Of a stretch of 64,000 bases of DNA, positions 14,601 through 58,970 are shown piece after piece; position 1 is the stretch's first letter, and each line of letters begins with the position of its first letter. This DNA is from Candidatus Poseidoniaceae archaeon. Its GTDB lineage: Archaea > Thermoplasmatota > Poseidoniia > Poseidoniales > Poseidoniaceae. The notes beneath the pieces are model-generated. The model made no database searches, was not told the origin of the DNA, and saw nothing but the letters and a program-made list of their open reading frames with translations. A program made the position numbers and the translations under genes. The stretch spans positions 200,989-264,988 of the forward strand of contig CALSRB010000002.1 of assembly GCA_943788655.1 (NCBI GenBank), read 5' to 3'.

Positions 14601-17379
14601 CAATGGGACAACGCTGGAAATAGTTGGGACACCTGGTGAAACAGCATCAGCAGTTCTCCAACTGACGTTGCCTGTGAACGCAGTACCTCAGCGTCATGTT
14701 TTTGCAACCGCCGAGTCAACAGAACCCCACTATGAACTGAACATCACATTGCATGTATTGCAAGTGTTCCGTTCAGCAGCGACCGTTCTCGAACCAACCC
14801 CGCTTATTCTTGGCGATCCCGTCGATCTCAAGGTAGGTGAGACACAGTCTGTTCTTCTGCGACTGGAAAACCCAGGCAACGGCGAGGACACGTTCATTCT
14901 CACGGGCTCCGTTGTTGCTGATCCAAACATGACGCCACAACCAGAAGTCGAATTCACAATTTACAATCCAGAGCGAACCCTCGGCCCTCTTGCGACCACC
15001 ATCGCAACAGTTGATGTGATTCTTGACGAAGACACACCTGCTCTCAACCCGTTCCAGTTACAATTCACATGGACATCGCAGGGCGAGGGCAACATAGCAT
15101 CTGCGACAGCGTTGACCGTGCAGGCAGAGCCGGATTACCGTTGGGAAATTGACGAGATCGATATCGAGGCCACGGAGGTGGCACCAGGCGACGAAGTGAC
15201 CATTGATTTCAAAGTGAAAAACATAGGAAACACGCCCGACACGCTCACAGTCAACCCGTCGTTTACAGTGGCCCATGCTGGGAACGACACATCCACTTGG
15301 AGCGCTTCAAGCAACAGCAGTGAGCAAATTGATGTCAATGGAACACAATCGATGAGCATCGGATTCACCGTCCCACACAATGCTTGGTTCATGACCGAAG
15401 TGACGCTTTCGATGGACTTGTACTCAGGCAACGTCTATGTCAGCAATGAAACCGTTGATTTTTCCGTAGTTCACGCATCTTCTTGGCGATTCAACCTTTC
15501 GGACACCTCGCTCACGATCGCCCCAGGGGGGGAAAATCTCACTCTGAAAGTCGATCAGCTTGGAAACCACCCTGAGGCGCCCTGGTTCACAAAAGCCGGG
15601 CAAGGATGGCCGATTGATCTCCCAGAGAATGGCGAGACAGTCAACCCTGGTGAATCGACAACAATGACGGTGTTTGTCACCCCCCCTGAAGACGCATTGG
15701 CAGGCGAAGTCGGTGTGCTGCGCATTCGTATTTCAGACGCCAATGGAGCCGGGCAAATCGTGCAAGAAATTCCGGTCCGTGTTGGACAAGAGGCGAACAT
15801 CAGCGTTGAACATCGCGGTACGTGGAAGGTCAACGAAGACGGTGGTATGCCAACTGCGTGGCTCGAGAACAACGGCAATGATGTCGCAGTTGTGCAGATT
15901 TCTATTGAGGGATTACCAACTGGATGGTTGCTCAATGGTTCGAACCAAGTGGTCATTGCCCCGGGCCAACTTCTCGGACTTCCTCTGATGCTCACACCAG
16001 ATGCAACTTGGAACCTCCAACGATTCCTCGTGACCATCAAAGTGAACCATCCATCATTGGGTGAGATAGCACACGATTTGGAGATCGAGTACGGGTCTCA
16101 CACCTTCCATACGACCCCGGTCCATTTGGCAAAAGAAGGGACTCCAATTACCATTCAATTCGGACAACCAGTGGACAGCGGCCTCACAAGCAGCGACACA
16201 GTTGAATTTGGGGGACAGTCAATTTCGTTCACAATGGGAAGTGAGGAAAATGAACTGCTTCTCGAATCATCCACCGACAGCACCAACAGAATGTCCATCT
16301 TCACATCAGGGTACTCGCTCCCCAGCGTTGATGTTGATTGTGACCTTGACGAACAAGCGTTCAGCAACCTTGGAAGAATTGTTCTCACCGGAAGTGTCGG
16401 TGAATGTCAAATCACAGCATCGGACCAAGCACCGGTGAAAGCCACCATCCTGCTCATTTCCGACCAAGGCGACACGGTGCCGTTGCGATCATCAGGAATT
16501 TCACTGGGCAGTGGAGAAAACGGAACATATGACTTGAATGTCAGTTCGTGGACACCTGAGGCTGCCAAGATGAGCGTCACTGTGATGGTGGTCGACTCTC
16601 ATGGTCGAATTTTGAATGAAGACACCGTTGAAGTAGTGGCTCGAAAATCAGGTTGGAATGTTGGCATTTTCTCGTTCACGGCGGATGAAGAACTCAAAGT
16701 CAGTATTCTAAGAACATCGTATGACGTGCTCGAGGGTGTCAACTGCCGGGTGGAGATCAACACGGTCGACAACAGTCTGGATGAGCCGCTTGTTCGAGTG
16801 ATCGATATCGCAGAAGGTGATTTCCCGCCCGTTGTGATTATCCCAGCACCTTCCGACCTTGCAGACAATAAACAATTGAGAGCCACGCTGGGCTGCGATA
16901 CACCGTATGACGTCGATGATGATCAAAGCGACAATGAAGCGACCGCCCTTTACACCAAAGCACAACAACCAATTGTGGAAAGCAGTGAAATCGTCATTTC
17001 ACTCGTTGTAGCAAGCCTCTTGTTGGTCGTTGCGTACTTAGCCGGGCTGATGGGCACCAAACCGAAAACAGATTCGAAGCCTAAGGTGAAACCGCTTCCA
17101 ACCACCACTGCACAACCAAAGTCAGAACCGAGCCCAGTGGAAGAAGTCGACGAGGAAGAGGATGAATTCTCATTCGAACTGACAGAGGAACAAGTTACAG
17201 AAAGCATCGTCGCGGAAGAGCCACAACAAGTTGACACGGTGGAGATCATCGACCTTCCAGATGAAGAAGATGTTACACCATCCGGGCGTTTGGCATCATT
17301 GCGGGATGAAATGTCAGACAACCAACCCTCTGCAGAGGGAAGAGAAGACAGAATGCGCCGGTTCTTCGGTGACCAGTGA
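11659..17379 (+). CDS. Giant 1906-aa cell-surface protein. It has a signal peptide, FG-GAP/VCBS-type beta-propeller repeats, many CARDB/Ig-like beta-sandwich domains, a single C-terminal TM helix and an acidic cytoplasmic tail.
   Basis: The N-terminal hydrophobic signal is ALVPVLMFILASLSPLVVAP. Repeated D-x-D/N-x-D-G segments (VDVNQDGRQEIV, ADLALDGTPELV, DIDGNGAPELIV, ADMDGDGTIDIL) are typical of FG-GAP. CARDB-like NxGN/NVGT motifs and many N-x-S/T sequons are present. The C-terminal TM is VISLVVASLLLVVAYLAGL, followed by a Lys/Pro then Glu/Asp-rich tail. Confidence 0.7.
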   Translation: MTSETQDSGRKFASALVPVLMFILASLSPLVVAPNSDLNLDEEHTSMQTGTGGAWTGLEQPWGQFGHTPTHNGSMPAHGPEGGPADGSVDEVTVLGTIENPGVNWEALDDGSDLYGSIIADFSASITAPEAAKERCAEDDLFAVLVHNDGTNTYLSLVSGDDAKLAWEVNIGETNDVRSTPAIVDVNQDGRQEIVLVYDTANALNIEVWSPELECSESGWQKSGHENEQYWSYSDVDYRIGIQSPHAPTSQSNHLSITQPLVADLALDGTPELVLAVVDETSNDPTVLSFGLSSSVPSDSNWEVTLDRGTHPSSPAWAALDSSTTAIVLTTIDSNGGSMWIWRIDGASGSLDWERVAVQGTDSDSDAPRLRLPGPVIAQLDNDDAPEMILTVPTDANGRTSGLGARFIGMEMTSTTEIFNFRAPNGYADAEPLVVDTTGDGLHDRLCWVTWYSESQFSFNRQGLTGCHDISDETPLKEWSRDLQRGAGNDNDEIAVASPLWLDIDGNGAPELIVPFGMRLYGFDGETGASADINDAWSSPLAMPHRVWASPAAADMDGDGTIDILIGDTLVSHLATDLAPLADGRGISFNPASPDPGETVTVTGSFSNVGTLDNEDNVDVVLRMNGNELTRERFADVEPVSPSGEGGPLTFSATFTAALGEHEFTLVLDVNNNLTESRKDNNNQSVTLTIVDPYVARIDPPLDPIRIAPGNSETIQIALTATGSRTADWTMSVDDTALPSGWSFAPVAGADLNPNLAPSTPMSIDFSVSIPPTALGDENSYVDLLLTLDDDEEVTSTLRLPIEVLRTRGLSVVGPAGLSESDGIGRPNHDAKAWLVVENLGNAQESTTSIDWTAPSWGGTPALYTADGTEVFSLTLAPNEDVELFATLGVPVGTTLGTSTSSMLTVCIGSGEDTLCQDLDVNFHASELAASPSHIRTLPDSTLEWTLEATLPSDGHLEWNMAQAQMIHTGWVWSATGDASVNGTTLEIVGTPGETASAVLQLTLPVNAVPQRHVFATAESTEPHYELNITLHVLQVFRSAATVLEPTPLILGDPVDLKVGETQSVLLRLENPGNGEDTFILTGSVVADPNMTPQPEVEFTIYNPERTLGPLATTIATVDVILDEDTPALNPFQLQFTWTSQGEGNIASATALTVQAEPDYRWEIDEIDIEATEVAPGDEVTIDFKVKNIGNTPDTLTVNPSFTVAHAGNDTSTWSASSNSSEQIDVNGTQSMSIGFTVPHNAWFMTEVTLSMDLYSGNVYVSNETVDFSVVHASSWRFNLSDTSLTIAPGGENLTLKVDQLGNHPEAPWFTKAGQGWPIDLPENGETVNPGESTTMTVFVTPPEDALAGEVGVLRIRISDANGAGQIVQEIPVRVGQEANISVEHRGTWKVNEDGGMPTAWLENNGNDVAVVQISIEGLPTGWLLNGSNQVVIAPGQLLGLPLMLTPDATWNLQRFLVTIKVNHPSLGEIAHDLEIEYGSHTFHTTPVHLAKEGTPITIQFGQPVDSGLTSSDTVEFGGQSISFTMGSEENELLLESSTDSTNRMSIFTSGYSLPSVDVDCDLDEQAFSNLGRIVLTGSVGECQITASDQAPVKATILLISDQGDTVPLRSSGISLGSGENGTYDLNVSSWTPEAAKMSVTVMVVDSHGRILNEDTVEVVARKSGWNVGIFSFTADEELKVSILRTSYDVLEGVNCRVEINTVDNSLDEPLVRVIDIAEGDFPPVVIIPAPSDLADNKQLRATLGCDTPYDVDDDQSDNEATALYTKAQQPIVESSEIVISLVVASLLLVVAYLAGLMGTKPKTDSKPKVKPLPTTTAQPKSEPSPVEEVDEEEDEFSFELTEEQVTESIVAEEPQQVDTVEIIDLPDEEDVTPSGRLASLRDEMSDNQPSAEGREDRMRRFFGDQ

Positions 17380-28015: not shown

Positions 28016-31000
28016 TCATTGACCATTGCGTTGGAGCCACTGGTGACCGTAGTGTTGCCATTGTTCCATCGTCCAGCCGTCAGGTAAACCCGACGGTGGG
28101 AGCGGTGGTCCCGTTGCAGCAGTTACCGGAGCAGGTGTAGGAACGGGGGCAGGAAGTGGCGTGGGCACTGGAGCCGGTATTTGCGGAAGGGCCTTTGGAG
28201 GAAGACCAGCCGGAGGCAAACCGGCAGGGGGGAGACCTCGAGGCAATGCGCCAGGGGTTGGCAGACCACGTGGCACAGCACCGGGAGGAAGTCCTTGAGG
28301 CACGACGGCAGGTGCAGGTGGGAGGTTGAGGGATTGAGCCAGAGCCGCTGCAATTTCATCCTGCGATACTTCTGCACTTGCGATTTCATTCACAGCGTGG
28401 CCAATGTCAAGTGCTTCATCGCGCCGTGTTCCAAGGTGATCTGGATTGACGAATGCATCAGGGGCCACAAGTTCACTTCCATCATCCTCAAGTTCGCCAG
28501 TGCGCTTCATTCTCAACGCAAGCACCGCTCCTGCGGCAATGAGCACTCCGATTAACGGAATTGAGACATAGAGAGGTAATACGGCGAGCAAACCACCATT
28601 GGTGTCGACGGAGGAAACAGTCGTTTCAATCGAGAATGTCCCCACGGTTTGTTCCTGTGAGGTCACAGAAATTTGTGTGAGCATGAGGCCTTTTGATGCT
28701 GATGCCTTCGGGGTGACGGTCACTTCAACGGTGAGGCTTTCACCAACGCCGAGACTCCCAATGGTGGTTTCTGAAAAAGAGACGCTCCAATCAGTGGAGG
28801 CGTTTCCGTCAGCGTCCAGCACAAGGGCGCTAAGTGCGCCAGTGATCGGTAAGTTGCCATCATTCCGTATAACAATGGATTGGGTTGCGCCCTCTTCCTT
28901 GGCAATGCTTCTGAACGGGCGAATGCTATCATCAGCAACCGACATGTTGGCGAATTGAGACGGCAAGACAGCGACGTCAATACGCACTGATGAGTTGACG
29001 AGGCGCCCGTTGTTTCCCCCGGTCACTGTGATTAAGAGGTCAAAGACTTGTGAGTCTGCAGCGGCATTTGCCGGTGGAATCAAGCCAAATCGAACGGTTT
29101 TTTCTTCCCGTGGTTCAAGGTAAGTGATCGGGTTAGCAAAGCCGACGACCCATCCATCAGGAGCGAGGCCATTGCTCCAAGCAAGCGTCAAAGGAGCATT
29201 GCCGGTGTTCGTCACGTTGAAATTTCCGTAGCTGAATGTGGAACCAATCACGGTTTCGATAACATCCCCTTCTGGACCTTGGAGGTTCACGGCGAGTTCA
29301 TCCCTTACTTTGAGCACTGTTGTGTTTGAGATGAATACCTGTGCGCTCAATTCTGTACGTATGACGAAACTGTTGGTATCGCCTTCTTCCGCTGCACCAG
29401 GCACGCCAATCACGAAGTTCACATCGATGGATTGCCCGGGGCCAAGAGCAATGGAAACTTGACGGGCATCCGTCTGGACTCCAGTGGTGACTTCAATCGG
29501 CCATGTTGGGTTGGAGGGCTGGATTTTGACATTCATGTCGAGGTCTGTGTTTCCGGTGTTCTCAACGGTCAGGTTCATGCTGATTTGTTCCCCACTGTCG
29601 ACAAGAACTTCTCGGTTTTTGGAAGATGGTCCGATTGGCCCGATGTCGTCGTACAAATCAGCACCAAAGGACTGCTGAGGGAGAACTGTGATGGTCGCAG
29701 ATTCACTGAAGTTCATCGAAACATCCGTGCTAGATGTCACATAGCATGTCACAGTATCTGTTGAACCTGTAAGCGGAACGCCGTTCGCCACCGGTGGCAC
29801 AAAAAGATCAATTTTAATCGCCCTGTATTCGCGAATGCCAATGGGTTCAATTTCTAATGTCGATGAGTTTGTGTCCTTGAGCATGATCTGCCAGCGGTTC
29901 TCAGATTCGCAGCTGATTGAGTATTGTGCGGGCGAGTTACCAATGTTCGCAACAGAAATTCTGAAGCCGGCAGAGTCACCGGGTTCAGCCTCGAGCCCTT
30001 CTGTTCCAAGCGGCGTAATGAGGACCTCGTCCAATTGGTCGATTGTAAATGTGAGTCGCTGAGTGTGAGCAACGGTAGGATTGTCTTGGTACCGTGCGGT
30101 CACATCCACCACAAATGTTCCAGAACGGGCATACCTTGGCGAAGCAGGATCGCTCAGGTCCGCATCCTCGTCCTCAAGGTGGATTGTAAGCAACTGGAAA
30201 TCACCAGCTTCTCCTTCCCCTTGAACTGTATATGGCCCCATTTGAGAGACACTCTTTGACCATGTATCCTCTGGCGAAAGGAGGAAATCAGGTCGACCTG
30301 GTTGTGGCACCTGCACCCCGGTGACACTCAGTGTGACATTTTTCTCTCCGGTACCCTCGTGGAGAATGTGAATGGGGATATCAATACCAGTTTGGTTTCG
30401 AACATCGAACGTTCGTATGGCCGCCGCTTCACGATCTTCAGAAGTGACCGGTACCGTACCATCGTCGTTGAGTACGACAACACGAACACCGAGAGCTGTG
30501 ACTTCAATGTCCTGTTCCCAAATGTTATTGTCGATACCAGTGGTCCCATCGTTCATTTCAGCAACCTGATCATTGGTATCGATTCGCAAGCGCATGCTGT
30601 GCGTCCCCGTGGTCAGGAATTGATGTTGAATCAAAAGTGAATCGATGGTTCCTGCAGCCAATGCAGAGCGGTCACCTTCAAACAGCGTTTCTCCAGCAGT
30701 GAGGTCTTCAAAGATGACACGGAAAGAGCCGGTGGCGAGGGTACCTTGGTTGATCCATCCAATTCGGATGGCAATCAAATCATTGCGAAGGGGTTCGGGG
30801 GAGGAAGGGATGATGCTCCCGTCGTACAGAGCAAGGTCGGCTTGGGGCGTCGGGGTTGCATCGGCAGTGACCACAAGTCCGAAACTTTGGGTCGTTCCGC
30901 CACGATGGAGAACCTTAACGAGCCATTGACCCGAGGTTGAAAGGGTACCAGGGGCGACCTTTATGCGCTCCACATTGTTGACTGAATCGCTTGTTTGCCC

Positions 31001-33001
31001 TGATGTGGTAAAGCCGTTTGCGAAATTATTGCCATACCATTCGTTTCCAGATGGGTCAACGAGAACAAGGTCGAGGTTGTTAACAAGACGAGATTCACTC
31101 TGGGCGGCATTTGCAGAACCTGCTACATCCGACCAAGCCAGTGTGATATCAATCCCGTGCGATGCGTCTAACTCGAACGCATAGAGGAGACCAAAGCCCG
31201 CATCCAGGGGAGTATTATCGTCCATGAACGTTGCAAGGGCAGAAGTGCTTGGCGAGGACGCATCCCAAACAGGTAAGACGGTGCGATCGAGGTCGATTTG
31301 ACCCCAGCCCTCAGCGTCGTTGGGAATATCAGGTGCGCCAAGATCTCGAGCACCGTTAATCATGGCCGCTTTCACGAGCGAGCCTGATGGTGCTGAGATC
31401 CCGACCTGTTCTCGAATGAACTCTCGGGTCAATGCTGCGACGCCACCGGCGACAGCGGTTGCTTGGGAAGTACCCGAAAGCAGAGTGTAGACATCTTCCC
31501 CATTGCTGTGAGTTTCAGTGGAGCATGCGGTTCCCGGCGAGGTTTTTGCTTCCTCAGCGGCCCCTGAGCACACATCGACCCCGGGCGCCACAAGGTCGGG
31601 CTTGATTCGTCCATCGAGGCTAGGTCCATTGCTTGAGAATGAGGCCACGCTTCCTGAGGTCGAACCCGTTCCTGAAGCACCAATGGCAAGCACGTTCTTG
31701 GCCGTGGATGGAGGCGTGATTTGTGATGCACCTTGTGAACCACGGTCACCAACAGCGAACAAGGGGAGCATGGAAGGCTTGTCGTGAACGAAGATGTCCA
31801 CTGAACGAGAATCGGCAGAGTACTGACCATAGTTCCCATTCGCCCCCCAAGCGTTGATAGCGATCCTGGCAGTCTTCTGTTCCGCATCCCTCAACAAATC
31901 ATAGATTGAACCGATTCGTCCGAAGACACCTGTCGGGTCATGCTCAAGAGCGTACATCACAAGGTCAGCATTTGGTGCCATGCCCGTAGCGTTCCCGTTT
32001 GATTGCCCATCCCCAATGGCAGACACTGCAATGTGAGTGCCGTGTCCGGTGTTGGAATCGGCAGGAGATGAATCGAGGCCAAATTGAGTGTAGACGCCTG
32101 CAACTCGTCCTATCAAGTCAGGGTGATCCAAATCAAGTCCAGTGTCGGCAATGGCAATCATTTCGCCCGACCCATCGAGGGTGAAGGTTGCATTTGCCCG
32201 CACATCGATGATGCCGGATGCTGCGGCGGCGGCGGCGTTATGCAATGAAAAGTCAGTGGTTGGTTCAATCCATATGATCCGTCCATCGTTTGCAACAGCA
32301 GCGATGAATGAGGGGGCCATTGACGGAGGAAGTTCGACTTCACACACACCAACGCCACACCACGCATTGTGGGCCCCCATTCGAATCAAATCCAAACTCA
32401 ACGCTTCAAACCCACCGTAGGAAAGATCCGCTGCTGGAATCAATGCCAGTCGTTGGGAGGCGTCACCTTCAAGCAGGGAAGCATCGATTCGCCAGCCTGG
32501 GTGTTGGGCGCCAACCCAGCGAACATCGTCATCGACAAGAAGAGCTCGAATTGAATCCACTGGAGGATCCGCCAGTCGGACCAGCCAGGCCTCATCACTG
32601 ATGAAATCGAGTGGAGTAAAGTCATGACGTTCGATGAGTTCCTGCAAAATCATGCCATCATGAGCGTGGAGTTGAACTATCGCAAGCCCGGTCGTTGTGA
32701 AATCGTTTGCGTTGAACAAACCAATTCCTGGTGTTGGATGTTCATGCAAGGTCGGGTCGAAACTTCCGATGTTCATGTTGAGAACGCCAGTCGATGGCTG
32801 AAGAGGAACTTGAATCCGCTCGGTTGGTGTTGCAACGTGCCACATCGAGGCGGCGAGTGCCAAGCGTTCGGCTTCGGACATCACGGTGTTTGTTGGTTCA
32901 TTGATTGATTCAACAGATTCCGAACTCACTGCAAGCATCGGTGAAAGCGATGTCAGGACAAGCAAAACAAGCATCAGTAACGGTCGGCGTAGTGCTTGCA
33001 T
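28016..33001 (-). CDS. Giant membrane-anchored subtilisin-like serine protease (S8) of about 1660 aa. It has a signal peptide, a propeptide, the catalytic domain, multiple Ig/CARDB-like domains, one TM helix, and a 165-aa Pro-rich cytoplasmic tail ending in a W-rich motif.
   Basis: The Asp, His and Ser catalytic triad motifs are IADTGLDLDHPDL, HGTHIAVSAIG and LSGTSQATAVAGGVAAL. The signal is MQALRRPLLMLVLLVLTSL; the track start at 33076 is 25 codons upstream. The TM is LLAVLPLYVSIPLIGVLIAAGAVLAL. The tail contains PRGLP and PAGLPP repeats and ends ...PPLPPSGLPDGWTMEQWQHYGHQWLQRNGQ. Confidence 0.8.
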   Translation of the reverse strand: MQALRRPLLMLVLLVLTSLSPMLAVSSESVESINEPTNTVMSEAERLALAASMWHVATPTERIQVPLQPSTGVLNMNIGSFDPTLHEHPTPGIGLFNANDFTTTGLAIVQLHAHDGMILQELIERHDFTPLDFISDEAWLVRLADPPVDSIRALLVDDDVRWVGAQHPGWRIDASLLEGDASQRLALIPAADLSYGGFEALSLDLIRMGAHNAWCGVGVCEVELPPSMAPSFIAAVANDGRIIWIEPTTDFSLHNAAAAAASGIIDVRANATFTLDGSGEMIAIADTGLDLDHPDLIGRVAGVYTQFGLDSSPADSNTGHGTHIAVSAIGDGQSNGNATGMAPNADLVMYALEHDPTGVFGRIGSIYDLLRDAEQKTARIAINAWGANGNYGQYSADSRSVDIFVHDKPSMLPLFAVGDRGSQGASQITPPSTAKNVLAIGASGTGSTSGSVASFSSNGPSLDGRIKPDLVAPGVDVCSGAAEEAKTSPGTACSTETHSNGEDVYTLLSGTSQATAVAGGVAALTREFIREQVGISAPSGSLVKAAMINGARDLGAPDIPNDAEGWGQIDLDRTVLPVWDASSPSTSALATFMDDNTPLDAGFGLLYAFELDASHGIDITLAWSDVAGSANAAQSESRLVNNLDLVLVDPSGNEWYGNNFANGFTTSGQTSDSVNNVERIKVAPGTLSTSGQWLVKVLHRGGTTQSFGLVVTADATPTPQADLALYDGSIIPSSPEPLRNDLIAIRIGWINQGTLATGSFRVIFEDLTAGETLFEGDRSALAAGTIDSLLIQHQFLTTGTHSMRLRIDTNDQVAEMNDGTTGIDNNIWEQDIEVTALGVRVVVLNDDGTVPVTSEDREAAAIRTFDVRNQTGIDIPIHILHEGTGEKNVTLSVTGVQVPQPGRPDFLLSPEDTWSKSVSQMGPYTVQGEGEAGDFQLLTIHLEDEDADLSDPASPRYARSGTFVVDVTARYQDNPTVAHTQRLTFTIDQLDEVLITPLGTEGLEAEPGDSAGFRISVANIGNSPAQYSISCESENRWQIMLKDTNSSTLEIEPIGIREYRAIKIDLFVPPVANGVPLTGSTDTVTCYVTSSTDVSMNFSESATITVLPQQSFGADLYDDIGPIGPSSKNREVLVDSGEQISMNLTVENTGNTDLDMNVKIQPSNPTWPIEVTTGVQTDARQVSIALGPGQSIDVNFVIGVPGAAEEGDTNSFVIRTELSAQVFISNTTVLKVRDELAVNLQGPEGDVIETVIGSTFSYGNFNVTNTGNAPLTLAWSNGLAPDGWVVGFANPITYLEPREEKTVRFGLIPPANAAADSQVFDLLITVTGGNNGRLVNSSVRIDVAVLPSQFANMSVADDSIRPFRSIAKEEGATQSIVIRNDGNLPITGALSALVLDADGNASTDWSVSFSETTIGSLGVGESLTVEVTVTPKASASKGLMLTQISVTSQEQTVGTFSIETTVSSVDTNGGLLAVLPLYVSIPLIGVLIAAGAVLALRMKRTGELEDDGSELVAPDAFVNPDHLGTRRDEALDIGHAVNEIASAEVSQDEIAAALAQSLNLPPAPAVVPQGLPPGAVPRGLPTPGALPRGLPPAGLPPAGLPPKALPQIPAPVPTPLPAPVPTPAPVTAATGPPLPPSGLPDGWTMEQWQHYGHQWLQRNGQ

Positions 33002-33076
33002 GCCTTTCCCACTTGTCGGGCCTTTTTGAAAACGCCCCTTGCTTGTGCCCCTACGGGGCACGATCGATTCACTCAA

Positions 33077-38772: not shown

Positions 38773-41253
38773 ATGCGCTGGCACTTCATCCTCGTGATGC
38801 TGTTCCTCCACAGCGCCACTCCACTCGCCTCAACAATCGGGGAAGCTGCGCATGCATCCTCACGATCAACCGATGCCACGTTGGTGGGATTGGAGGAAAC
38901 TGTCGTCCACAGAAATGAGCTCGTAGAGGTCCAATTCACCCTCCATAACCGCGGTTCACAAGAGCAAACATTCACCATCAATGCCACGAGCATCCCGTCT
39001 GACCTCCTTGTATCTGGCCTCCCTCTTACGCACACGCTTGAAGCAGGGTATCTGAAAAATCTAAAATTCAACCTCAGCGCCATACCCACTGCACCTTATG
39101 GTACACTCACAATCGAACTCGAACTCACAACGAGTGATGATGCTGAATGGAATGAACAGGCAAACGCAAGCGTGCGTGTCGCACCATATTCAAGACTGGA
39201 TTTCGGAACCCAGGACATCTCCTCATTCATCAGCGATGCTGGGACACGAACCTCTGTCGCAGTGAACATCACCAACAATGCATCCTTCGATGATGATGTG
39301 CTCTTCAACTTGTACACAACAAGCGGTTGGAATTGGGGATGGACCATGAATAACTCAGATGGCGTCAATGCATACGAAACGCTCGCACCGGGGCAGTTGG
39401 CCTACGTCTACCTCTGGGTCGATGTTCCTGAAATTATTGACGGAAGCCCTCTTGCAAACACTGGCCCACGCTTCCAGTTGAAGGCGGTCTCAGGCCTCGA
39501 TAGAGCTGTGTCCCAGTGGTCGTTTGACCTCCTACTCGATGCATACAGGAATGCTTCCATCGATGCCAAGGACGAGGACTTAGTCCTTGACCCGGGTGCG
39601 AATGGCCGCATCAGTGTCGATGTACGCAATGTTGGCAACACCAACAACCGCCTCGACATAACGCTGCAAGCAATTGACCAACAAGGCCAACCAATATCCG
39701 GCATTGCCCTTGAGGACAGAATTGCGAGAAATGGGTGGACGATGGCGCTCTTCGGTGGCCTCGAGGAAGTTGAACTTGGGCCAAATGAGACTCGAACCAT
39801 CGAAATCGGTTTCCAAGCCCCCGGTGATTACACAGGGACCATCGATGTTAGGGTCCGTGTGTTTGCCTTGGGAGCACAAGAACGGGTGCGCACCGTTGAC
39901 GTCGGTGCTACGATTGAATGGAAGCGAAATGCAACGCTTGCGTTACAAACTGATCAATGCCGATCGCTGTTGCCAAACACCTCATGCTCAGCATCGGTGT
40001 TCATCGAAAACACTGGAAACGCACGGGACACCTTTTCGTTCCATCTCATTGAGGCTCCTCCATCTGTTATGGCTACTTTAACCGAAACGAGCGTGAGCCT
40101 AAACCCGTTTGAATCGACTGTGATTGAGTTCATACAAATCCAAGCCTCGGCAGAAGCGCTGGCCTTCCAAACTGGTGATGTCGATGTTGAAATCCATCTC
40201 GGTGGAACCGATACGATTGTCGGTGCAATTGGTGTACCAACCAAGATTGCCCCGGTGATCAGTTGGGTGTTTGAAGACATCGAGGAAACAATCGACAAGA
40301 ACGGACGCCTTTCGATTTCTATGACGGCCCGCAATGAGGGAAATGCTGTTGATGGTTTGCTGGTGCAACTGCAATCGTCACATTCGACCCCGATGTCATT
40401 CATCCCCCCTTTCATCGCTGTTTATGAAGAAAACATCGAATACCCCCGCTCCTATGAAATAACGAACATCCCCATTGGATTCAATTTCACAATCGAAGCA
40501 TGGGTCGATCTTCCTCAAGATCAACTCAGCAATGGTACAGTGTATGTCAACACAACCGTACGCTCACAATTTGCCCCGGATGAACCATTTGTTCAAACGA
40601 GTACGGGTGGTTACCTCGGGACCCCTTGGCAGGCAACGGAAGAGACTGGAGGCTGGTTCGACCCTTCGACCATCATCGCAACCATCGTGGAAATATTCAC
40701 TGCATGGCTGTGGGTCATCATCTCGATCGTCATATCAGTTGCCATCATCCAACGAGCATATTCGGCCCGAAAAGAGCGCACAGCGGAACGACTGCTGTTC
40801 GAAGAAATGCACGCACCTAAGCCAAAAGAAGCCCCTGAGGACTGGATGCAAAAATTCCAAGTAAAGCCAAAACAGGTGCAACAAGAAGCCGTCATGGCAG
40901 TTTCTGCAGAACACTTCCAGCAGGCATTCACCAACCGTGCTGGCGCACCAACACCCGCTCCTGCCCCTGTGCAGGCGGATATTCATGGTGCCGCAGCTCA
41001 AGCATTGGACGCTCAAGACAATTTACGAACCATTGCAAAGGCCGATGATTTGCTGCTCGACATTGAAACAGGAAACGTTGCCCAGCCAATGGCAAACCAA
41101 GCGATTCTTCCTGATGTGGTGATACCATCCAACATGACGGTACGCCATGACCCAAAAGAGGTTCTCGGAACCACCAACTCAGAGATCACATCAGCCAGCG
41201 TACCGCTCCCCTCTGTACCATCGATGATGGATCTTGACGATTTGGATGTGTGA
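38773..41253 (+). CDS. Cell-surface glycoprotein, a candidate S-layer or envelope protein. It has a signal peptide, tandem CARDB-like domains, many N-glycosylation sequons, a C-terminal TM helix and a cytoplasmic tail.
   Basis: The signal is ILVMLFLHSATPLAS. CARDB-type motifs are DVRNVGNT, IENTGNA and ARNEGNA. There are at least 13 N-x-S/T sequons. The TM is IIATIVEIFTAWLWVIISIVISVAII, followed by a tail of about 150 aa containing PTPAPAPV. Confidence 0.65.
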   Translation: MRWHFILVMLFLHSATPLASTIGEAAHASSRSTDATLVGLEETVVHRNELVEVQFTLHNRGSQEQTFTINATSIPSDLLVSGLPLTHTLEAGYLKNLKFNLSAIPTAPYGTLTIELELTTSDDAEWNEQANASVRVAPYSRLDFGTQDISSFISDAGTRTSVAVNITNNASFDDDVLFNLYTTSGWNWGWTMNNSDGVNAYETLAPGQLAYVYLWVDVPEIIDGSPLANTGPRFQLKAVSGLDRAVSQWSFDLLLDAYRNASIDAKDEDLVLDPGANGRISVDVRNVGNTNNRLDITLQAIDQQGQPISGIALEDRIARNGWTMALFGGLEEVELGPNETRTIEIGFQAPGDYTGTIDVRVRVFALGAQERVRTVDVGATIEWKRNATLALQTDQCRSLLPNTSCSASVFIENTGNARDTFSFHLIEAPPSVMATLTETSVSLNPFESTVIEFIQIQASAEALAFQTGDVDVEIHLGGTDTIVGAIGVPTKIAPVISWVFEDIEETIDKNGRLSISMTARNEGNAVDGLLVQLQSSHSTPMSFIPPFIAVYEENIEYPRSYEITNIPIGFNFTIEAWVDLPQDQLSNGTVYVNTTVRSQFAPDEPFVQTSTGGYLGTPWQATEETGGWFDPSTIIATIVEIFTAWLWVIISIVISVAIIQRAYSARKERTAERLLFEEMHAPKPKEAPEDWMQKFQVKPKQVQQEAVMAVSAEHFQQAFTNRAGAPTPAPAPVQADIHGAAAQALDAQDNLRTIAKADDLLLDIETGNVAQPMANQAILPDVVIPSNMTVRHDPKEVLGTTNSEITSASVPLPSVPSMMDLDDLDV

Positions 41254-44215: not shown

Positions 44216-46279
44216 TCAAGCCACGAGCTTGATGACACGAGCGCAACCTGCACAAGCAAATCTCAACGGCCGCTCATTGCTGAGCACAGGGTTTGGAGTT
44301 GAACATGCAGGGCACGGGATGGTTTGTGTGTTGGCCTGAGGCATGGCGTCTCCCGGTAGGCGTGTTCGTGGACTGGAAACTGCAGTGATGAACCACAGAA
44401 GAACGGTGAACACCACTGCTCCTGCGACAAACATATTTGAGAAGGCGAAGAGATGGATGAAGGCGATAAGTGGAATCAGCAGTAATTCAAGCGCCAAGAG
44501 GCTTCTTGATCTGTTCTTTGACAAACGCAAGGCAACGAAGAGCCCTGCAAATAAAGCCATTCCAACGCCGATTGTAAGGGGCATCGGTGCCGCTATGGGC
44601 GAAGCGGTTGGAAGGAAAGCAATCGTGAATTTCTCCTCTTGGCCAAGGCCCTCAGCATCAATCGAGAGGGTTTCTCCCCATGGGAATCGTGAGTGACTCA
44701 CTTCAAATTCCTCGGATTGGAACGTCTTTGGCGTCAAGAAGGCTGAGAAGCCAGACGATGTACCCTCCAGTGAGACATCCAATTGAGACCAAATGGGGCT
44801 GGTTTGCACAACGATGAAATCCCTGAGAAACTCCATTTGCGTGTTGGCCGTTACCGTTTGCACTGACTTAAACACCAAAGAGACTGGGTGATTCACCACA
44901 TCGACCTCGCCGTGGAGGTCAAGTTTGATTTCAGTTGAGGAAAAAGAACTGTCCCGGTAATCTCCAAGCAAGTCATCACTGTCAAGGCCGAGGCCTTGGA
45001 ACATGAAAAACGAATACAATCCTGAGGCTGTACCAGATTTCAACTGCATTTGGTTTTCAAATTCATTGACCTCATTTGCCTCAATCGATCGACTCGTTCG
45101 GTCATCATCGGTGACTGACCCTTCGTCGAATGCTTGCAGAGCGGGTGACAAATCGGTGACATCATCACCAATGTGGTCCAGCCCCCAACGCATCCAAAAT
45201 GCCATTTCATCCTCAATGGTAATCGTGGTTTCACGGGTAAGTTGTGGGCCTCCTTCTCCACTGGCAAGAGCGAACGTACCAGTCACAGAAATTTTGCTCC
45301 CTTCACCATCGGTTTGCAGGGGTTCATCTGGTGGGTAGTAAGTTCCAGTACCGCCATTTGAATCGAACGTTTCTACAAGAAATGTCGTGGTTCCAGAAAG
45401 GATGCTATCGCCTTCTTGCAGGACCATTTCGACCTTCGCTTCGACGGATTCTTCCCCTCCGGTTGCATCCAACCATGTCCATGTGATTCGAACACCATCA
45501 CCTTGAGAGGTCTCGATTGGGTCGCCTTCTAGAAGAACCCCATTGACTCTCATGTTGAGCGACTCGGAGTTGGAGAGAATTTTCGTACCCCACGATGAAT
45601 CAATAACCACAGAAAAATAGACTTCTGAACCTTCAACCTCTGGTTCGAGAAGCGTCAGTGACATGAGGGGCATGTCTCCTTTAATCACAGAGTCACTTTC
45701 TTCACTTCCCCATTGAAATTGGAGTTGTGCTTCACCAGTTGGCAAATTGAAGACCACGCTGCGTGCGGTCACAGTGAGGACAACATTGCTGGAAGAGGAG
45801 ATTGAGGTGCTGTCCACATCTATTTCGAATTGGAGCGTCCCGGTTCCTTGGCCCAAAAATGAGTCGCCTGGTCCAGTCTGTGCAGTGTATGTTTGTGAAC
45901 CGATTTGCAAGGATGCTGTTGCGTTCACCTGCGCACCTGCAGCGTTGGTGACTTCGTAGGCGATGTCGACTTCCCAAGTTGACGCAGGGACTGTGCCAGG
46001 CCAAACCTCAGGCAACGACCATGTTCCCACTGTTTCTTCGGACGCAACAGCGGTAGCGATGGTCTTCGTCATGGTCGTTTCAGTGAGATCTTGTACGAAT
46101 GGTGTGAGCGATCCGCTGCTATCGGAGCCAATCAAGTGAAGAGATACGCCGACTGAATCGCAGCAAACTGTCGTGTCCTCGGCTTGCGCGTAGCCAACGA
46201 ACATGCTGTTCATCGGAGCGAACAGAGCAACCAAAAAGATGGATGCAAAAAACAACGGACGCCACGACATGGTTGTCAC
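44216..46279 (-). CDS. Membrane-anchored surface protein of 687 aa, with a signal peptide, a beta-rich ectodomain, one TM helix and a cytoplasmic C-terminal zinc ribbon
   Basis: The signal is LFFASIFLVALFAPMNSMFVGYA. The TM is LIPLIAFIHLFAFSNMFVAGAVVFTVLLWFI. The tail ends CPACS...CAGC. Confidence 0.55.
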   Translation of the reverse strand: MTTMSWRPLFFASIFLVALFAPMNSMFVGYAQAEDTTVCCDSVGVSLHLIGSDSSGSLTPFVQDLTETTMTKTIATAVASEETVGTWSLPEVWPGTVPASTWEVDIAYEVTNAAGAQVNATASLQIGSQTYTAQTGPGDSFLGQGTGTLQFEIDVDSTSISSSSNVVLTVTARSVVFNLPTGEAQLQFQWGSEESDSVIKGDMPLMSLTLLEPEVEGSEVYFSVVIDSSWGTKILSNSESLNMRVNGVLLEGDPIETSQGDGVRITWTWLDATGGEESVEAKVEMVLQEGDSILSGTTTFLVETFDSNGGTGTYYPPDEPLQTDGEGSKISVTGTFALASGEGGPQLTRETTITIEDEMAFWMRWGLDHIGDDVTDLSPALQAFDEGSVTDDDRTSRSIEANEVNEFENQMQLKSGTASGLYSFFMFQGLGLDSDDLLGDYRDSSFSSTEIKLDLHGEVDVVNHPVSLVFKSVQTVTANTQMEFLRDFIVVQTSPIWSQLDVSLEGTSSGFSAFLTPKTFQSEEFEVSHSRFPWGETLSIDAEGLGQEEKFTIAFLPTASPIAAPMPLTIGVGMALFAGLFVALRLSKNRSRSLLALELLLIPLIAFIHLFAFSNMFVAGAVVFTVLLWFITAVSSPRTRLPGDAMPQANTQTIPCPACSTPNPVLSNERPLRFACAGCARVIKLVA

Positions 46280-58508: not shown

Positions 58509-58961
58509 TTACCAGTCTTCTGGAATCTCAAGTGGCGAGAACAACTGCCCTGGCCCTTGCGCCCGAGACAATTGAGCACGTGACAATGCTTCCCAAGGCC
58601 GCAATGCAAGCAATCCTTCGGCAAGTGTGGCCTCAATTTCCACAAGGGTTACACGTATTAGCGTCGAAAGGATGTCCATTCGATCTTCATCAATGATTTT
58701 GAACACCTTTTCGAGGTCGAACGTCGCGCTGACATCACCTTGGCTGCCTTCTTCGATTGGCCAAGGAGCTGTGATTCGCTCACTGAAAGACTGCCCACTT
58801 GCTTCGATGTGAGCATCAAGCGAACGGGAAAGACCTGCGATGTGACGGCCAACAACGAGACTGACTTCTATCAAAGGCATGTTGAGTTGGTTAATCAGGT
58901 TGACCACGCGCTCTTGCATCGTCACCATGCCTTCGACGGCAGCGTCGGGTGTGTCGCTCAT
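58509..58961 (-). CDS. Hypothetical cytoplasmic protein of 150 aa, tightly coupled (9 nt) downstream of the giant surface-protein gene
   Basis: ATG verified at 58961. A 9-nt gap separates it from the TGA of the upstream giant ORF. No TM helix and no motif recognised. Confidence 0.45.
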   Translation of the reverse strand: MSDTPDAAVEGMVTMQERVVNLINQLNMPLIEVSLVVGRHIAGLSRSLDAHIEASGQSFSERITAPWPIEEGSQGDVSATFDLEKVFKIIDEDRMDILSTLIRVTLVEIEATLAEGLLALRPWEALSRAQLSRAQGPGQLFSPLEIPEDW

Positions 58962-58970
58962 TGCTAAGCC

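What the first reader, a model, noticed from the sequence alone, without database searches (positions are those of the whole stretch)
28019..28513. Near-identical C-terminal cytoplasmic tail shared by two unrelated giant ectoproteins
The 1660-aa S8 protease and the more than 1670-aa surface protein at 58971..64000 have unrelated ectodomains, yet both end with the same cytoplasmic arrangement. A single TM helix is followed by a juxtamembrane basic/acidic stretch (RMKRTGELEDDGSEL against NRRIRTEGLEGGLTDE). A proline-rich linker follows (PRGLP and PAGLPP repeats in one, PAAPLAPVAPAPAQP in the other). The final block is almost identical: PPLPPSGLPDGWTMEQWQHYGHQWL against PPLPPTGLPEGWTQDQWNHFGWQYV, with 17 of 24 positions identical and the rest conservative. 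Conservation concentrated at the extreme cytoplasmic C-terminus of otherwise divergent giant surface proteins suggests a dedicated intracellular docking or sorting module, bound by a cytoplasmic partner such as a cytoskeletal, secretion or quality-control factor. It matches none of the archaeosortase signals I know (PGF-, PEF-, VPXXXP-CTERM). Those are extracellular-side tripartite signals, whereas this motif lies after a long cytoplasmic linker.
Basis: seen in the sequence. Interest (0 to 1): 0.8.

Follow-up and report, generated by a model that had tools for sequence, protein, structure and literature searches.

The report
Shared cytoplasmic tail of archaeal ectoproteins
Large, unrelated surface proteins of the abundant marine archaea Poseidoniales (Marine Group II) all end inside the cell with the same undescribed ~30-residue peptide on a floppy tether, which most likely plugs them into one shared, still unidentified intracellular partner.

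Summary
Two proteins with unrelated ectodomains, an S8 protease (28016..33001, -) and a domain-less giant (58971..>64000, -), share one ending. It runs signal peptide, ectodomain, one TM helix, K/R juxtamembrane patch, Pro/Ala-rich linker, then P-P-[LVI]-P-x-x-G-L-P-x-G-W-T-M-E-Q-W-x-H-Y-G-x-Q-[WY]-L, then 5 residues and stop.

This is not a local duplication. At least 552 copies occur in GTDB species genomes. The 80 best loci are all Poseidoniales (both families) apart from one mis-binned contig. There are 633 protein clusters at 50% identity. At least 7 unrelated ectodomain families carry the motif. All 115 full-length S8 homologues found through the ectodomain alone have it. Synonymous sites are saturated.

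Pfam, NCBIfam, PDB, viral contigs and the literature give no match. It fails the archaeosortase-signal and WW-domain tests and is a poor membrane-binding helix. AlphaFold gives a confident helix (pLDDT ~92) after a proline turn, on a low-confidence linker.

Best reading, inferred: a tethered cytoplasmic docking module. The partner is unknown and no operon partner exists.

A second, separate tail motif (…DLDDLD[IVF]-COOH) exists. It resembles the SepF-binding part of FtsZ tails, and in related genomes a gene carrying both motifs lies just upstream of a SepF-like gene.

The parts
28016..33001 (-). Carrier 1: a type-I membrane subtilase of 1661 aa counted from M26. It contains Peptidase_S8, CARDB and NEW3 Ig-like domains. 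The catalytic D/H/S contexts ADTG, HGTH and SGTS are present.
   Evidence: Translation. Pfam Peptidase_S8 E=7e-41. 100% identical to P0172, 1661 aa.
32921..33001 (-). N-terminal signal peptide of carrier 1 (MQALRRPLLMLVLLVLTSLSPMLAVSS).
   Evidence: Read from the translation. Other carrier families have comparable signal peptides.
28514..28597 (-). Single C-terminal TM helix of carrier 1.
   Evidence: Hydropathy scan. AlphaFold helix with pLDDT above 90.
28469..28513 (-). Juxtamembrane stretch RMKRTGELEDDGSEL. Its basic patch marks the cytoplasmic side of the membrane.
   Evidence: Positive-inside statistics over 96 carriers.
28112..28468 (-). Cytoplasmic tether of carrier 1. It has an S8-family-specific conserved segment (LVAPDAFVNPDHLGTRR..ALDIG..EVS.DEIAAALAQSL), then GLPP(A/S)G(L/M)PP repeats, then variable Pro/Ala.
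   Evidence: Alignment of 36 S8 tails. AlphaFold pLDDT 56-72. No DNA tandem repeat.
28034..28111 (-). Motif A, copy 1: GPPLPPSGLPDGWTMEQWQHYGHQWL. It consists of a proline stretch, a GLPxG turn and an aromatic helix.
   Evidence: column conservation; pLDDT 80 to 92; helix MEQWQHYGHQWLQR.
28019..28033 (-). Five polar residues (QRNGQ) after motif A, followed by the stop codon at 28016..28018.
   Evidence: In S8 homologues 7-10 residues lie between the …YG of the motif and the C-terminus.
58971..64000 (-). Carrier 2: a giant surface protein with no Pfam or NCBIfam domain. Its 5' end runs off the window; full-length orthologues are about 1790-2030 aa.
   Evidence: cluster containing L023, L033, L060.
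59268..59339 (-). TM helix of carrier 2.
59070..59267 (-). Juxtamembrane NRRIRTEGLEGGLTDE followed by a Pro/Ala/Gln-rich linker in carrier 2.
58989..59069 (-). Motif A, copy 2: PPPPLPPTGLPEGWTQDQWNHFGWQYV. This family-specific variant is conserved in orthologues P0001-3, P0007 and L001.
38773..41253 (+). A related but distinct case: an 826-aa type-I surface protein. Its cytoplasmic tail of about 165 aa lacks motif A and ends in motif B.
41221..41250 (+). Motif B at the extreme C-terminus: SMMDLDDLDV-COOH.
   Evidence: All 120 homologues end in [DE][DE][LF]D[IVF] and none has motif A. In related loci the same motif follows motif A in one paralogue.

Best explanation
Motif A is an order-wide, previously undescribed cytoplasmic C-terminal module of about 25-30 residues, found in type-I surface proteins of Poseidoniales (Marine Group II archaea).

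Shown:
- It sits at the very end of proteins that have an N-terminal signal peptide, a large ectodomain (protease, PKD/CARDB stalks, beta-propellers, arylsulfotransferase-like, or no known domain) and one TM helix.
- It is separated from the membrane by a poorly conserved, Pro/Ala/Glu/Gln-rich tether of 29-136 residues.
- It is the most conserved part of each carrier, and selection acts at the protein level.

Inferred:
- The module is a proline stretch, a GLPxG turn and a short aromatic helix (W-T-M-E-Q-W-x-H-Y-G-x-Q-W-L). It works as a tethered docking peptide or mini-domain.
- It lets one conserved cytoplasmic or membrane-proximal partner recognise many unrelated surface proteins. That partner could be a scaffold, a cytoskeletal or division-site protein, or a biogenesis/quality-control factor. 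The result would be to position, cluster, retain or monitor those proteins.
- The logic is the same as the C-terminal NWETF pentapeptide of chemoreceptors, the FtsZ C-terminal peptide, or eukaryotic receptor tails.

The partner is not identified. It is not encoded next to the carriers. A SepF-like protein is the only concrete candidate raised here, and the evidence for it concerns the separate motif B more than motif A.
For: - Distribution: at least 552 confirmed stretches in GTDB species genomes. The best 80 loci come from 70 assemblies and are all Poseidoniales, covering both Poseidoniaceae and Thalassarchaeaceae, apart from one mis-binned contig. There are 633 clusters at 50% identity with E<=1e-3 among 1.84 billion representatives, and the match ends at or within a few residues of the C-terminus in most of the 150 hits listed.
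- Modularity: at least 7 ectodomain clusters without mutual similarity carry it.
- Topology: signal peptides and the positive-inside rule, with 83/96 K/R after the TM and 85/96 D/E before it. Of 41 database hits long enough to judge, 39 have a TM segment upstream.
- Selection: all 115 full-length S8 homologues found through the ectodomain alone (53-100% identical) carry the motif 7-10 aa from the end. Within families, identity is 72-80% for the motif, 26-46% for the linker and 35-52% for the ectodomain. Invariant residues use all synonymous codons.
- Invariant positions: P, P, G, L, P, G, W, Q, W, G.
- Structure: AlphaFold2 with 36 sequences gives pLDDT 80 for PPLPPSG, 92 for GLPDGW plus the helix, and 56-72 for the linker. 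The 45-aa run also gives a helix.
- Tails are modular: an independent second C-terminal motif exists, alone or downstream of motif A.
Against: - No binding partner was found or tested.
- No neighbour gene family is shared between carrier families.
- AlphaFold complex prediction could not be run.
- A high pLDDT on a conserved helix does not prove that it is a binding site.
- Copy number per complete genome and absence outside Poseidoniales could not be measured exhaustively.
- The within-family identity comparison used loci that had been selected by motif match, so it is biased. The S8 test is unbiased.
Confidence: 0.5

Rival explanations
1. Self-association module. The proline stretch and aromatic helix form a small fold, as in the pancreatic-polypeptide PP-fold or the Trp-cage. 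This fold dimerises or oligomerises. The tails of different surface proteins then bind each other and cluster the ectoproteins into patches or a lattice without a separate adaptor.
For: A proline stretch, turn and aromatic helix are the ingredients of PP-fold miniproteins (own knowledge). pLDDT is already 80 on the proline stretch and 92 on the helix, which is unusual for an isolated linear motif. Many genomes have two adjacent carriers. No operon partner exists.
Against: Coordinates and contacts of the model could not be inspected. Foldseek against the PDB found nothing, with no match below E=6.9. Multimer prediction was not possible. Strict invariance of about 10 residues across at least 7 families fits a common external reader at least as well.
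Confidence: 0.15
2. Cis-acting biogenesis element. The C-terminal proline-rich/Trp sequence acts while it is being made or just after. It could pause translation until the upstream TM helix is integrated. Or it could act as a 'completion tag' that stabilises only full-length giant proteins.
For: PP dipeptides and Trp/Pro-rich sequences are typical of ribosome-stalling peptides (own knowledge: SecM, TnaC, polyproline/EF-P). With the motif added, the tether of at least 29 aa is long enough for the TM helix to have left the ribosome tunnel when the motif is translated.
Against: The distance from the motif to the stop codon varies (7-11 aa, or 16-17, 39, 44, 61, 81 and 86 aa in longer tails), and so does the distance to the TM helix (29-136 aa). 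Invariance of Q, E, Y and G and the helical periodicity are not explained by stalling. Carriers have N-terminal signal peptides, so targeting does not need the tail.
Confidence: 0.12
3. In-plane membrane anchor. The aromatic helix lies in the cytoplasmic membrane interface and acts as a second anchor or as a curvature or lipid sensor.
For: Trp and Tyr favour membrane interfaces. The predicted helix has an aromatic ridge formed by W, W, Y and T plus M and L.
Against: The hydrophobic moment is only 0.21-0.32 and is not above shuffled controls. Net charge is 0 to -3 with no conserved K/R, unlike the MinD, FtsA or SepF membrane-targeting helices. Conserved E and Q sit inside the helix. A long tether is unnecessary for a protein that is already membrane-anchored.
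Confidence: 0.07
4. A degenerate or partial WW-like domain that binds proline ligands, possibly the PPLP just upstream or the GLPP repeats of other tails.
For: The best PDB sequence matches to the tail profile are WW domains of Salvador homolog 1. The alignment runs over GLPxGW…G…Y. PPLP is a class II WW ligand (own knowledge).
Against: E=0.09-0.17, which is not significant. No Pfam WW hit even at E<=1. There is no second signature Trp 20-22 residues later and no following Pro, because the protein ends first. AlphaFold predicts a helix, not a beta-sheet.
Confidence: 0.04
5. A C-terminal sorting or processing signal of the archaeosortase, exosortase or rhombosortase type.
For: It is a conserved C-terminal element shared by many surface proteins of one lineage. 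That distribution pattern is typical of sortase signals.
Against: Those signals consist of a motif, then a TM helix, then a basic cluster at the very end, with the motif on the outside. Here the order is TM, basic patch, a linker of 29-136 aa, then the motif, all on the cytoplasmic side. NCBIfam holds the CTERM models and gave no hit.
Confidence: 0.02

Closest known systems
C-terminal NWETF pentapeptide of high-abundance bacterial chemoreceptors (Tar/Tsr), which tethers CheR and CheB (own knowledge)
   Same: A membrane protein carries a flexible, poorly conserved cytoplasmic tether, followed by a short aromatic peptide at the extreme C-terminus. That peptide is far more conserved than the tether. 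It is shared by paralogous receptors and serves as a docking site.
   Different: There is no sequence similarity. Motif A is 25-30 residues with a proline stretch and a helix, not 5 residues. The carriers are type-I ectoproteins and enzymes, not chemoreceptors. The partner is unknown.
FtsZ C-terminal linker plus C-terminal peptide, which binds SepF, FtsA or ZipA (archaeal case: M. smithii peptide NEDQLDDFIDGIF, PMC8178401)
   Same: A disordered linker is followed by a short conserved C-terminal peptide that a membrane-proximal adaptor reads. Motif B (…LLDDLDF / DLDDLD[IV]-COOH) resembles the LDDFI / DLDV part, which binds the conserved SepF groove. In 21 related loci a gene carrying motifs A and B lies just upstream of a SepF-like gene; the gap is about 12 nt in the two loci whose coordinates were read.
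   Different: Motif A has no resemblance to FtsZ tails. Motif B lacks the archaeal GID element. The SepF identity of the neighbouring gene is weakly supported (see the membership test). The FtsZ tails of Poseidoniales could not be retrieved.
Cytoplasmic tails of eukaryotic type-I adhesins and receptors (integrin beta NPxY; apicomplexan TRAP/MIC2 acidic tail with sub-terminal Trp) (own knowledge)
   Same: These are large adhesive or enzymatic ectodomains with a single TM helix and a short cytoplasmic tail. A conserved aromatic or acidic motif in the tail couples unrelated ectodomains to one intracellular machine.
   Different: The resemblance is an analogy only. There is no homology, the organism is an archaeon, and no cytoskeletal or motor partner is known in Poseidoniales.
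Archaeosortase/exosortase C-terminal sorting signals (PGF-CTERM, PEF-CTERM, VPXXXP-CTERM)
   Same: They are lineage-wide C-terminal elements shared by many surface proteins.
   Different: The topology and order of elements are reversed, a long linker intervenes, and the motif lies on the cytoplasmic side. The CTERM models give no hit.
WW domain (PF00397) and PP-fold/Trp-cage miniproteins
   Same: The LPxGW start and a Gly and an aromatic residue further on recall the first half of a WW domain. A proline stretch followed by an aromatic helix recalls PP-fold and Trp-cage miniproteins.
   Different: WW membership is not met: there is no second Trp or Pro, a helix is predicted, and E is about 0.1. 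PP-fold-like packing could not be checked because model coordinates are not exposed.

Membership tests
Archaeosortase/exosortase-type C-terminal sorting signal (PGF-/PEF-/VPXXXP-CTERM etc.) | The signature motif lies immediately N-terminal to the TM helix, on the extracytoplasmic side. | tested here: not met
   Motif A lies 29-136 residues C-terminal to the TM helix and on the K/R-rich cytoplasmic side.
Archaeosortase/exosortase-type C-terminal sorting signal (PGF-/PEF-/VPXXXP-CTERM etc.) | The protein ends with the TM helix plus a short basic cluster. | tested here: not met
   After the basic patch come a long linker, motif A and 5-11 polar residues.
Archaeosortase/exosortase-type C-terminal sorting signal (PGF-/PEF-/VPXXXP-CTERM etc.) | A curated CTERM model matches, and a sortase gene co-occurs. 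| tested here: not met
   No NCBIfam hit for either whole protein or for the isolated tails at E<=1. Sortase co-occurrence was not tested.
WW domain (PF00397) | Two signature Trp residues lie 20-22 residues apart, followed by a conserved Pro, in a domain of about 35-40 aa. | tested here: not met
   Only the first LPxGW Trp context is present. The protein ends 19-24 residues after it, without a W-x-x-P.
WW domain (PF00397) | A three-stranded antiparallel sheet, and a significant profile match. | tested here: not met
   AlphaFold predicts a helix. No Pfam WW hit at E<=1. The best PDB WW match has E=0.09.
Tethered C-terminal docking peptide (functional class: chemoreceptor NWETF, FtsZ C-terminal peptide) | A disordered, poorly conserved tether links the body of the protein to the peptide. 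| tested here: met
   The linker is 29-136 aa with 15% Pro and 15% Ala. Identity is 26-46%, against 72-80% for the motif. pLDDT is 56-72.
Tethered C-terminal docking peptide (functional class: chemoreceptor NWETF, FtsZ C-terminal peptide) | A short, strongly conserved peptide sits at or near the extreme C-terminus and is shared by paralogues. | tested here: met
   In most carriers 7-11 residues lie between the …YG of the motif and the stop codon. The motif occurs in at least 7 families, and in 115 of 115 S8 homologues.
Tethered C-terminal docking peptide (functional class: chemoreceptor NWETF, FtsZ C-terminal peptide) | A demonstrated binding partner. | not testable with these tools
   Complex prediction and experiments were not available. 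Synteny gives no shared neighbour.
Membrane-targeting amphipathic helix (MinD/FtsA/SepF type) | A high hydrophobic moment and a net positive charge. | tested here: not met
   The hydrophobic moment is 0.21-0.32 and not above shuffles. Net charge is 0 to -3.
PP-fold / Trp-cage-like miniprotein | A polyproline-II segment packs against aromatic residues of a following helix. | tested here: inconclusive
   The sequence pattern and the pLDDT values (80 on PPLPPSG, 92 on the helix) are compatible. Contacts could not be read, and Foldseek found no such match.
Peptidase S8 (carrier 1 ectodomain) | A subtilase profile match and the Asp/His/Ser triad motifs. | tested here: met
   PF00082 E=7.1e-41 over the full profile. 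ADTG, HGTH and SGTS are present in the translation.
SepF (PF04472/DUF552): the ~200-aa gene downstream of the motif A+B carrier in related loci | A profile match to the SepF core. | tested here: inconclusive
   Pfam SepF gives E=0.085 for 1 of 15 members. hhalign against the B. subtilis and C. glutamicum cores gives probability 4.7% over 23 columns. The profile finds no PDB SepF. One JGI/IMG record names a cluster member 'SepF-like predicted cell division protein (DUF552 family)'.
SepF (PF04472/DUF552): the ~200-aa gene downstream of the motif A+B carrier in related loci | An N-terminal amphipathic membrane-binding helix, a flexible linker and a C-terminal core of about 90 aa. | tested here: met
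   A conserved N-terminus MGxLWQFFGLPDPE, a variable linker and a conserved C-terminal block GDTxIVDL…ACRR…FxLD..DKLLxIPG. The architecture matches that described for M. smithii SepF (PMC8178401).

The most novel reading that the evidence does not exclude
Poseidoniales use a eukaryote-like 'tail code'. Disordered cytoplasmic tails of type-I surface proteins carry at least two separable short peptide modules. Motif A is PPLPxxGLPxGWTMEQWxHYGxQWL. Motif B is …DLDDLD[IVF]-COOH and mimics the SepF-binding part of FtsZ tails. Dedicated cytoplasmic readers such as SepF would recognise them. This would physically couple the surface proteome of these archaea to the division ring or an internal scaffold. 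It would be a surface-protein organising system not described in any archaeon or bacterium.
Probability: 0.25. Interest if true: 0.85.

Novelty: new variant of a known kind. Interest (0 to 1): 0.62.

Why it matters
Poseidoniales are among the most abundant archaea in the surface ocean, are uncultured, and nothing is known about their envelope organisation. A single cytoplasmic module shared by their main proteases, adhesin-like stalk proteins and other ectoproteins implies a common intracellular reader of the surface proteome. That gives a concrete handle: a 30-residue peptide for pull-downs, in-silico complex screens and localisation reporters. It can be used to find that machinery, and it gives a sequence signature for cataloguing the order's surface proteome in metagenomes. 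If the second motif really mimics the FtsZ tail and binds SepF, it would be, to my knowledge, the first case of surface proteins hooked directly to the archaeal division anchor. The motif also deserves a curated family model, since none exists in Pfam or NCBIfam.

Tried and rejected
1. Described families. Pfam and NCBIfam scans of whole proteins and isolated tails gave only ectodomain domains. The PDB profile search gave only sub-threshold WW hits. Foldseek against the PDB gave nothing. A literature string search for GWTMEQW and keyword searches gave nothing relevant.

2. Stand-alone small proteins. The first homology search returned only proteins of 36-77 aa. The two hits on long contigs that were inspected (P0002, P0017) proved to be tails split from 1200-1850-aa ORFs by N-gaps and scaffold duplications. 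The other short hits are assumed to be similar fragments. The idea was rejected.

3. Operon partner. I clustered 584 ORFs from 82 loci plus the window. No neighbour family is shared across carrier families. Neighbours are housekeeping genes: adenylate kinase, GAPDH, thermosome, helicase, GlmS, Maf, KaiC-like.

4. Viral carriage. No match in IMG/VR.

5. Recent duplication or gene conversion. Rejected on DNA divergence and saturated synonymous sites.

6. DNA tandem repeat in the linker. None found.

7. Membrane-binding helix. The hydrophobic moment and charge argue against it.

8. FtsZ carrying motif A. No tubulin signature was found in any hit or locus. Poseidoniales FtsZ could not be retrieved, so its C-terminal peptide remains unseen.

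9. SepF identity of the downstream gene. Sequence tests were inconclusive.
Full report
**1. What is in the window**

ORF 28016..33076 (-) encodes a subtilase. The likely start is M26 at 33001, giving 1661 aa, identical to database protein P0172.

It has a signal peptide, a Peptidase_S8 domain (E=7e-41), CARDB/NEW3 Ig-like domains and one TM helix at 28514..28597. A 165-residue tail follows.

ORF 58971..>64000 (-) encodes a giant protein with no Pfam or NCBIfam domain. It has a TM helix at 59268..59339 and a 98-residue tail.

Both tails end with the same block:
- GPPLPPSGLPDGWTMEQWQHYGHQWL-QRNGQ*
- PPPPLPPTGLPEGWTQDQWNHFGWQYV-ESMKK*

A six-frame scan finds only these two copies in the window. 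The ectodomains show no significant similarity, with a best E of 0.028, and the tails align only over the motif. The two DNA copies share 59 of 105 positions and differ at many synonymous sites.

**2. Distribution**

A profile of the two tails found 25 short 'proteins' that all end in the motif. The two on long contigs that I inspected (P0002, P0017) are tails cut from 1200-1850-aa ORFs by N-gaps and scaffold duplications. I assume the other short hits are similar fragments.

The 80 best loci come from 70 assemblies. They are all Poseidoniales, from both Poseidoniaceae (MGIIa) and Thalassarchaeaceae (MGIIb). The one exception is a 'Verrucomicrobiales' bin whose two carriers have the same lengths and identical printed tail sequences as those of Poseidonia locus L024. 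I take it to be mis-binned.

A full HMMER pass over 1.84 billion cluster representatives gave 633 clusters at E<=1e-3 and 355 at E<=1e-10. In most of the 150 hits listed, the match ends at or within a few residues of the C-terminus. IMG/VR viral contigs have none.

The window itself is from a Poseidoniaceae genome. Locus L003 is 96% identical over the tail.

**3. Anatomy across carriers**

The fetched loci hold 102 motif copies, including a few duplicated or garbled copies at scaffold gaps. They lie in ORFs of about 400 to over 2000 aa. The motif comes after the last TM helix and a linker of 29-136 residues. In most carriers 7-11 residues lie between the …YG of the motif and the stop codon.

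Ectodomains fall into at least 7 clusters without mutual similarity:
- two large PKD/CARDB families, one of them a tandem gene pair
- the S8 proteases
- the family of window carrier 2
- a beta-propeller-like family
- a second ~1200-aa family with only a weak, sub-threshold PKD match
- an arylsulfotransferase-like protein

Full-length carriers start with signal peptides. The first charged residue after the TM core is K/R in 83 of 96 carriers, and the first before it is D/E in 85 of 96. There are 2.2 K/R in the 8 residues after the TM core, against 0.26 before it. The tail is therefore cytoplasmic. This rests on the positive-inside rule, which is established knowledge.

The linker is enriched in Pro (15% against 5% in ectodomains) and Ala (15% against 7%), and has no Cys.

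Column statistics give the consensus G-P-P-[LVI]-P-x-x-G-L-P-x-G-W-T-M-E-Q-W-x-H-Y-G-x-Q-[WY]-L. Ten positions are invariant in 94 sequences.

**4. Selection**

The unbiased test used the S8 ectodomain alone (1475 aa, tail removed) as the query. It retrieved 115 full-length homologues that are 53-100% identical. All 115 carry the motif, with the …YG of the motif 7-10 residues from the C-terminus.

Within four carrier families, mean pairwise identity is 35-52% for ectodomains, 26-46% for the 50 columns before the motif and 72-80% for the motif. Those loci were chosen by motif match, so that comparison is biased upwards.

Invariant Pro, Gly and Leu positions use all synonymous codons. Among codon pairs, 41% differ synonymously and 24% differ in amino acid. 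Constraint therefore acts on the peptide and not on the DNA or RNA. The tail cassette is old: the family-specific variants, such as GWTQ[DE]QWNHFGWQYVES in carrier-2 orthologues, are themselves conserved.

**5. Structure**

AlphaFold2 on the last 45 residues with 25 sequences gave a helix at MEQWQHYGHQWLQRN with pLDDT about 80.

On the whole S8 tail (193 aa, 36 sequences) it gave:

| Segment | pLDDT |
|---|---|
| TM helix | above 90 |
| S8-specific helical segment | 60-69 |
| Pro-rich tether | 56-72 |
| PPLPPSG | 80 |
| GLPDGW plus helix 177-190 | 92 |

The module is thus a confidently predicted turn plus helix at the end of a low-confidence tether.

Whether the proline stretch packs on the helix, as in PP-fold or Trp-cage miniproteins, could not be read from the output. 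Foldseek found no analogue.

As a helix it has only a modest hydrophobic moment (0.21-0.32, not above shuffles) and a net charge of 0 to -3. It is therefore not a typical membrane-binding amphipathic helix.

**6. Comparison with known families**

- Pfam-A, NCBIfam and PDB sequences contain nothing that matches.
- The best PDB profile hits are WW domains of SAV1, aligned over GLPxGW…G…Y, at E=0.09-0.17. The second signature Trp and the Pro, the beta-sheet and any Pfam WW hit are all absent, so WW membership is not met.
- Archaeosortase-type signals are excluded on anatomy. The order here is TM, basic patch, linker, then motif, all cytoplasmic.
- Full-text searches for the motif string and for related keywords found no description.

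**7. Search for a partner**

I clustered all ORFs of 82 loci and the window. No neighbour family is shared between carrier families.

Neighbours are housekeeping genes: adenylate kinase, YhbY, a CitMHS transporter, GAPDH, thermosome, helicase, GlmS, Maf and KaiC-like. Any reader of motif A must be encoded elsewhere.

**8. A second tail motif and a candidate reader**

The longer member of the tandem PKD/CARDB pair continues 38-86 residues beyond motif A. It ends in …(S/G)LLDDLD[FLI]-COOH.

In the window, the 826-aa type-I protein 38773..41253 has a TM helix at 40672..40749 and a 165-aa tail. It lacks motif A and ends in SMMDLDDLDV-COOH. All 120 homologues found with the whole protein end in [DE][DE][LF]D[IVF]-COOH, and none has motif A. 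The tails are therefore modular, with at least two separable C-terminal peptides.

In all 21 loci that hold it, a ~200-aa gene accompanies the tandem carrier pair. It starts about 12 nt after the stop of the A+B carrier in the two loci whose coordinates were read (L002, L019). It has a conserved N-terminus MGxLWQFFGLPDPE, a variable linker and a conserved ~90-aa C-terminal block.

That is the SepF architecture described for M. smithii (PMC8178401). One JGI record names a cluster member 'SepF-like (DUF552)'. The sequence tests are weak, however:
- Pfam SepF gives E=0.085 in 1 of 15 members.
- hhalign gives a probability of 4.7%.
- The profile finds no PDB SepF.

The same paper reports that the N-terminal half of the FtsZ C-terminal peptide binds a conserved SepF groove. 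That half is LDDFI in M. smithii (peptide NEDQLDDFIDGIF) and DLDV in C. glutamicum. Motif B (LDDLDF, DLDDLDI, DDFDI) resembles exactly this part but lacks the archaeal GID element.

This is a lead and not a result. It concerns motif B more than motif A.

**9. Most likely mechanism**

Shown: motif A is a cytoplasmic, C-terminal, order-wide module under strong protein-level constraint. It is shared by unrelated type-I surface proteins and sits at the end of a variable tether.

Inferred: motif A is a tethered docking peptide or mini-domain read by one conserved intracellular or membrane-proximal factor. That factor positions, clusters, retains or checks the surface proteins. I give this a confidence of about 0.5.

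Rivals:

| Rival | Confidence |
|---|---|
| Homotypic clustering through a PP-fold-like mini-domain | 0.15 |
| Cis-acting translation, insertion or stability element | 0.12 |
| Interfacial membrane helix | 0.07 |
| Degenerate WW-like binder | 0.04 |
| Sortase-type signal | 0.02 |

**10. Verdict**

The finding is real. It is robust across hundreds of genomes and is undescribed in the libraries and literature available here. It is wrong in two details: not all giant proteins carry the motif, and the neighbouring ORF is not a general partner.

I rate it a new variant of a known kind, namely tethered C-terminal docking peptides on membrane proteins, and set interest at about 0.6. The more novel reading is a two-motif 'tail code' that couples the surface proteome to SepF or the division ring. 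It is not excluded, and I give it a probability of about 0.25.

Noticed in passing
window 38773..41253 (+), motif at 41221..41250; also L019, L024 and L002 (ends of the ~1210-aa carriers): A second conserved cytoplasmic C-terminal motif, …DLDDLD[IVF]-COOH or (E/D)DDFDI-COOH. It occurs alone on an 826-aa type-I protein; 120 of 120 homologues have it and none has motif A. It also occurs 38-86 aa downstream of motif A in one paralogue of a tandem pair. It resembles the LDDFI/DLDV part of FtsZ C-terminal peptides, which binds SepF (PMC8178401).
   Followed up: partly
L002:11846-12460, L019:6229-6801, L053:6241-6819 and 18 other loci: A ~200-aa gene accompanies the tandem carrier pair in 21 loci. 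It starts about 12 nt after the stop of the motif A+B carrier in L002 and L019. It has SepF-like architecture: N-terminal MGxLWQFFGLPDPE, a linker and a conserved C-terminal core. It also has an unusual conserved linker element, WxGPxTPDGExFHDL. Sequence support for SepF is weak (Pfam E=0.085; hhalign 4.7%), and one IMG record calls a member SepF-like. Maf and a KaiC-like ATPase lie nearby.
   Followed up: partly
window 28112..28468 (-): The S8-family tail is more than a linker. About 50 residues (LVAPDAFVNPDHLGTRR.EALDIG.AV.E..S.EVS..EIA.A..QS..LP) and the repeated GLPP(A/S)G(L/M)PP units are conserved in all 36 aligned S8 homologues and absent from the other carrier families. The repeats echo the GLPxG of motif A.
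   Followed up: partly
window 11659..17379 (+): A third giant surface protein of 1906 aa with FG-GAP, CARDB and NEW3 domains. It has a C-terminal TM helix and a 110-aa acidic cytoplasmic tail ending RMRRFFGDQ*. It carries neither motif A nor motif B, so the tail module is not universal among giant ectoproteins.
   Followed up: partly
window 44216..46279 (-) and 53553..54566 (-): A 687-aa protein with a signal-peptide-like N-terminus ends in a CxxC…CxxC zinc-ribbon-like sequence (IPCPACS…CAGCARV). A 337-aa protein ends in a Pfam-supported zinc ribbon. Both may be further examples of small cytoplasmic modules on tails of envelope proteins.
   Followed up: no
window 58959..58973 (-); L001:8220-8234: The TGA stop of carrier 2 is in frame with the ATG of the next ORF (150 aa, no Pfam hit), 9 nt downstream. 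Orthologous locus L001 has the same spacing. This is probably only tight operon packing; read-through was not examined.
   Followed up: no
L001:7890-8000 and L002:7880-7990: ENA scaffolds contain runs of N flanked by duplicated sequence inside the Pro-rich tail region. These split carrier genes and create spurious 40-80-aa 'proteins' in public protein sets. That probably explains why the first protein search returned only short hits.
   Followed up: yes
L035 (NZEQ01000049.1, labelled Verrucomicrobiales bacterium ARS100): This contig carries the same tandem carrier pair as Poseidonia locus L024, with the same ORF lengths and identical printed tail sequences. It is almost certainly an archaeal contig mis-binned into a bacterial MAG.
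   Followed up: partly
P0028, P0112, P0130: One carrier subfamily has an extra conserved element in the tether, (H)DTVANSMYGG…F(Q/E)QQ, about 30 residues before motif A. It may be another short linear motif.
   Followed up: no
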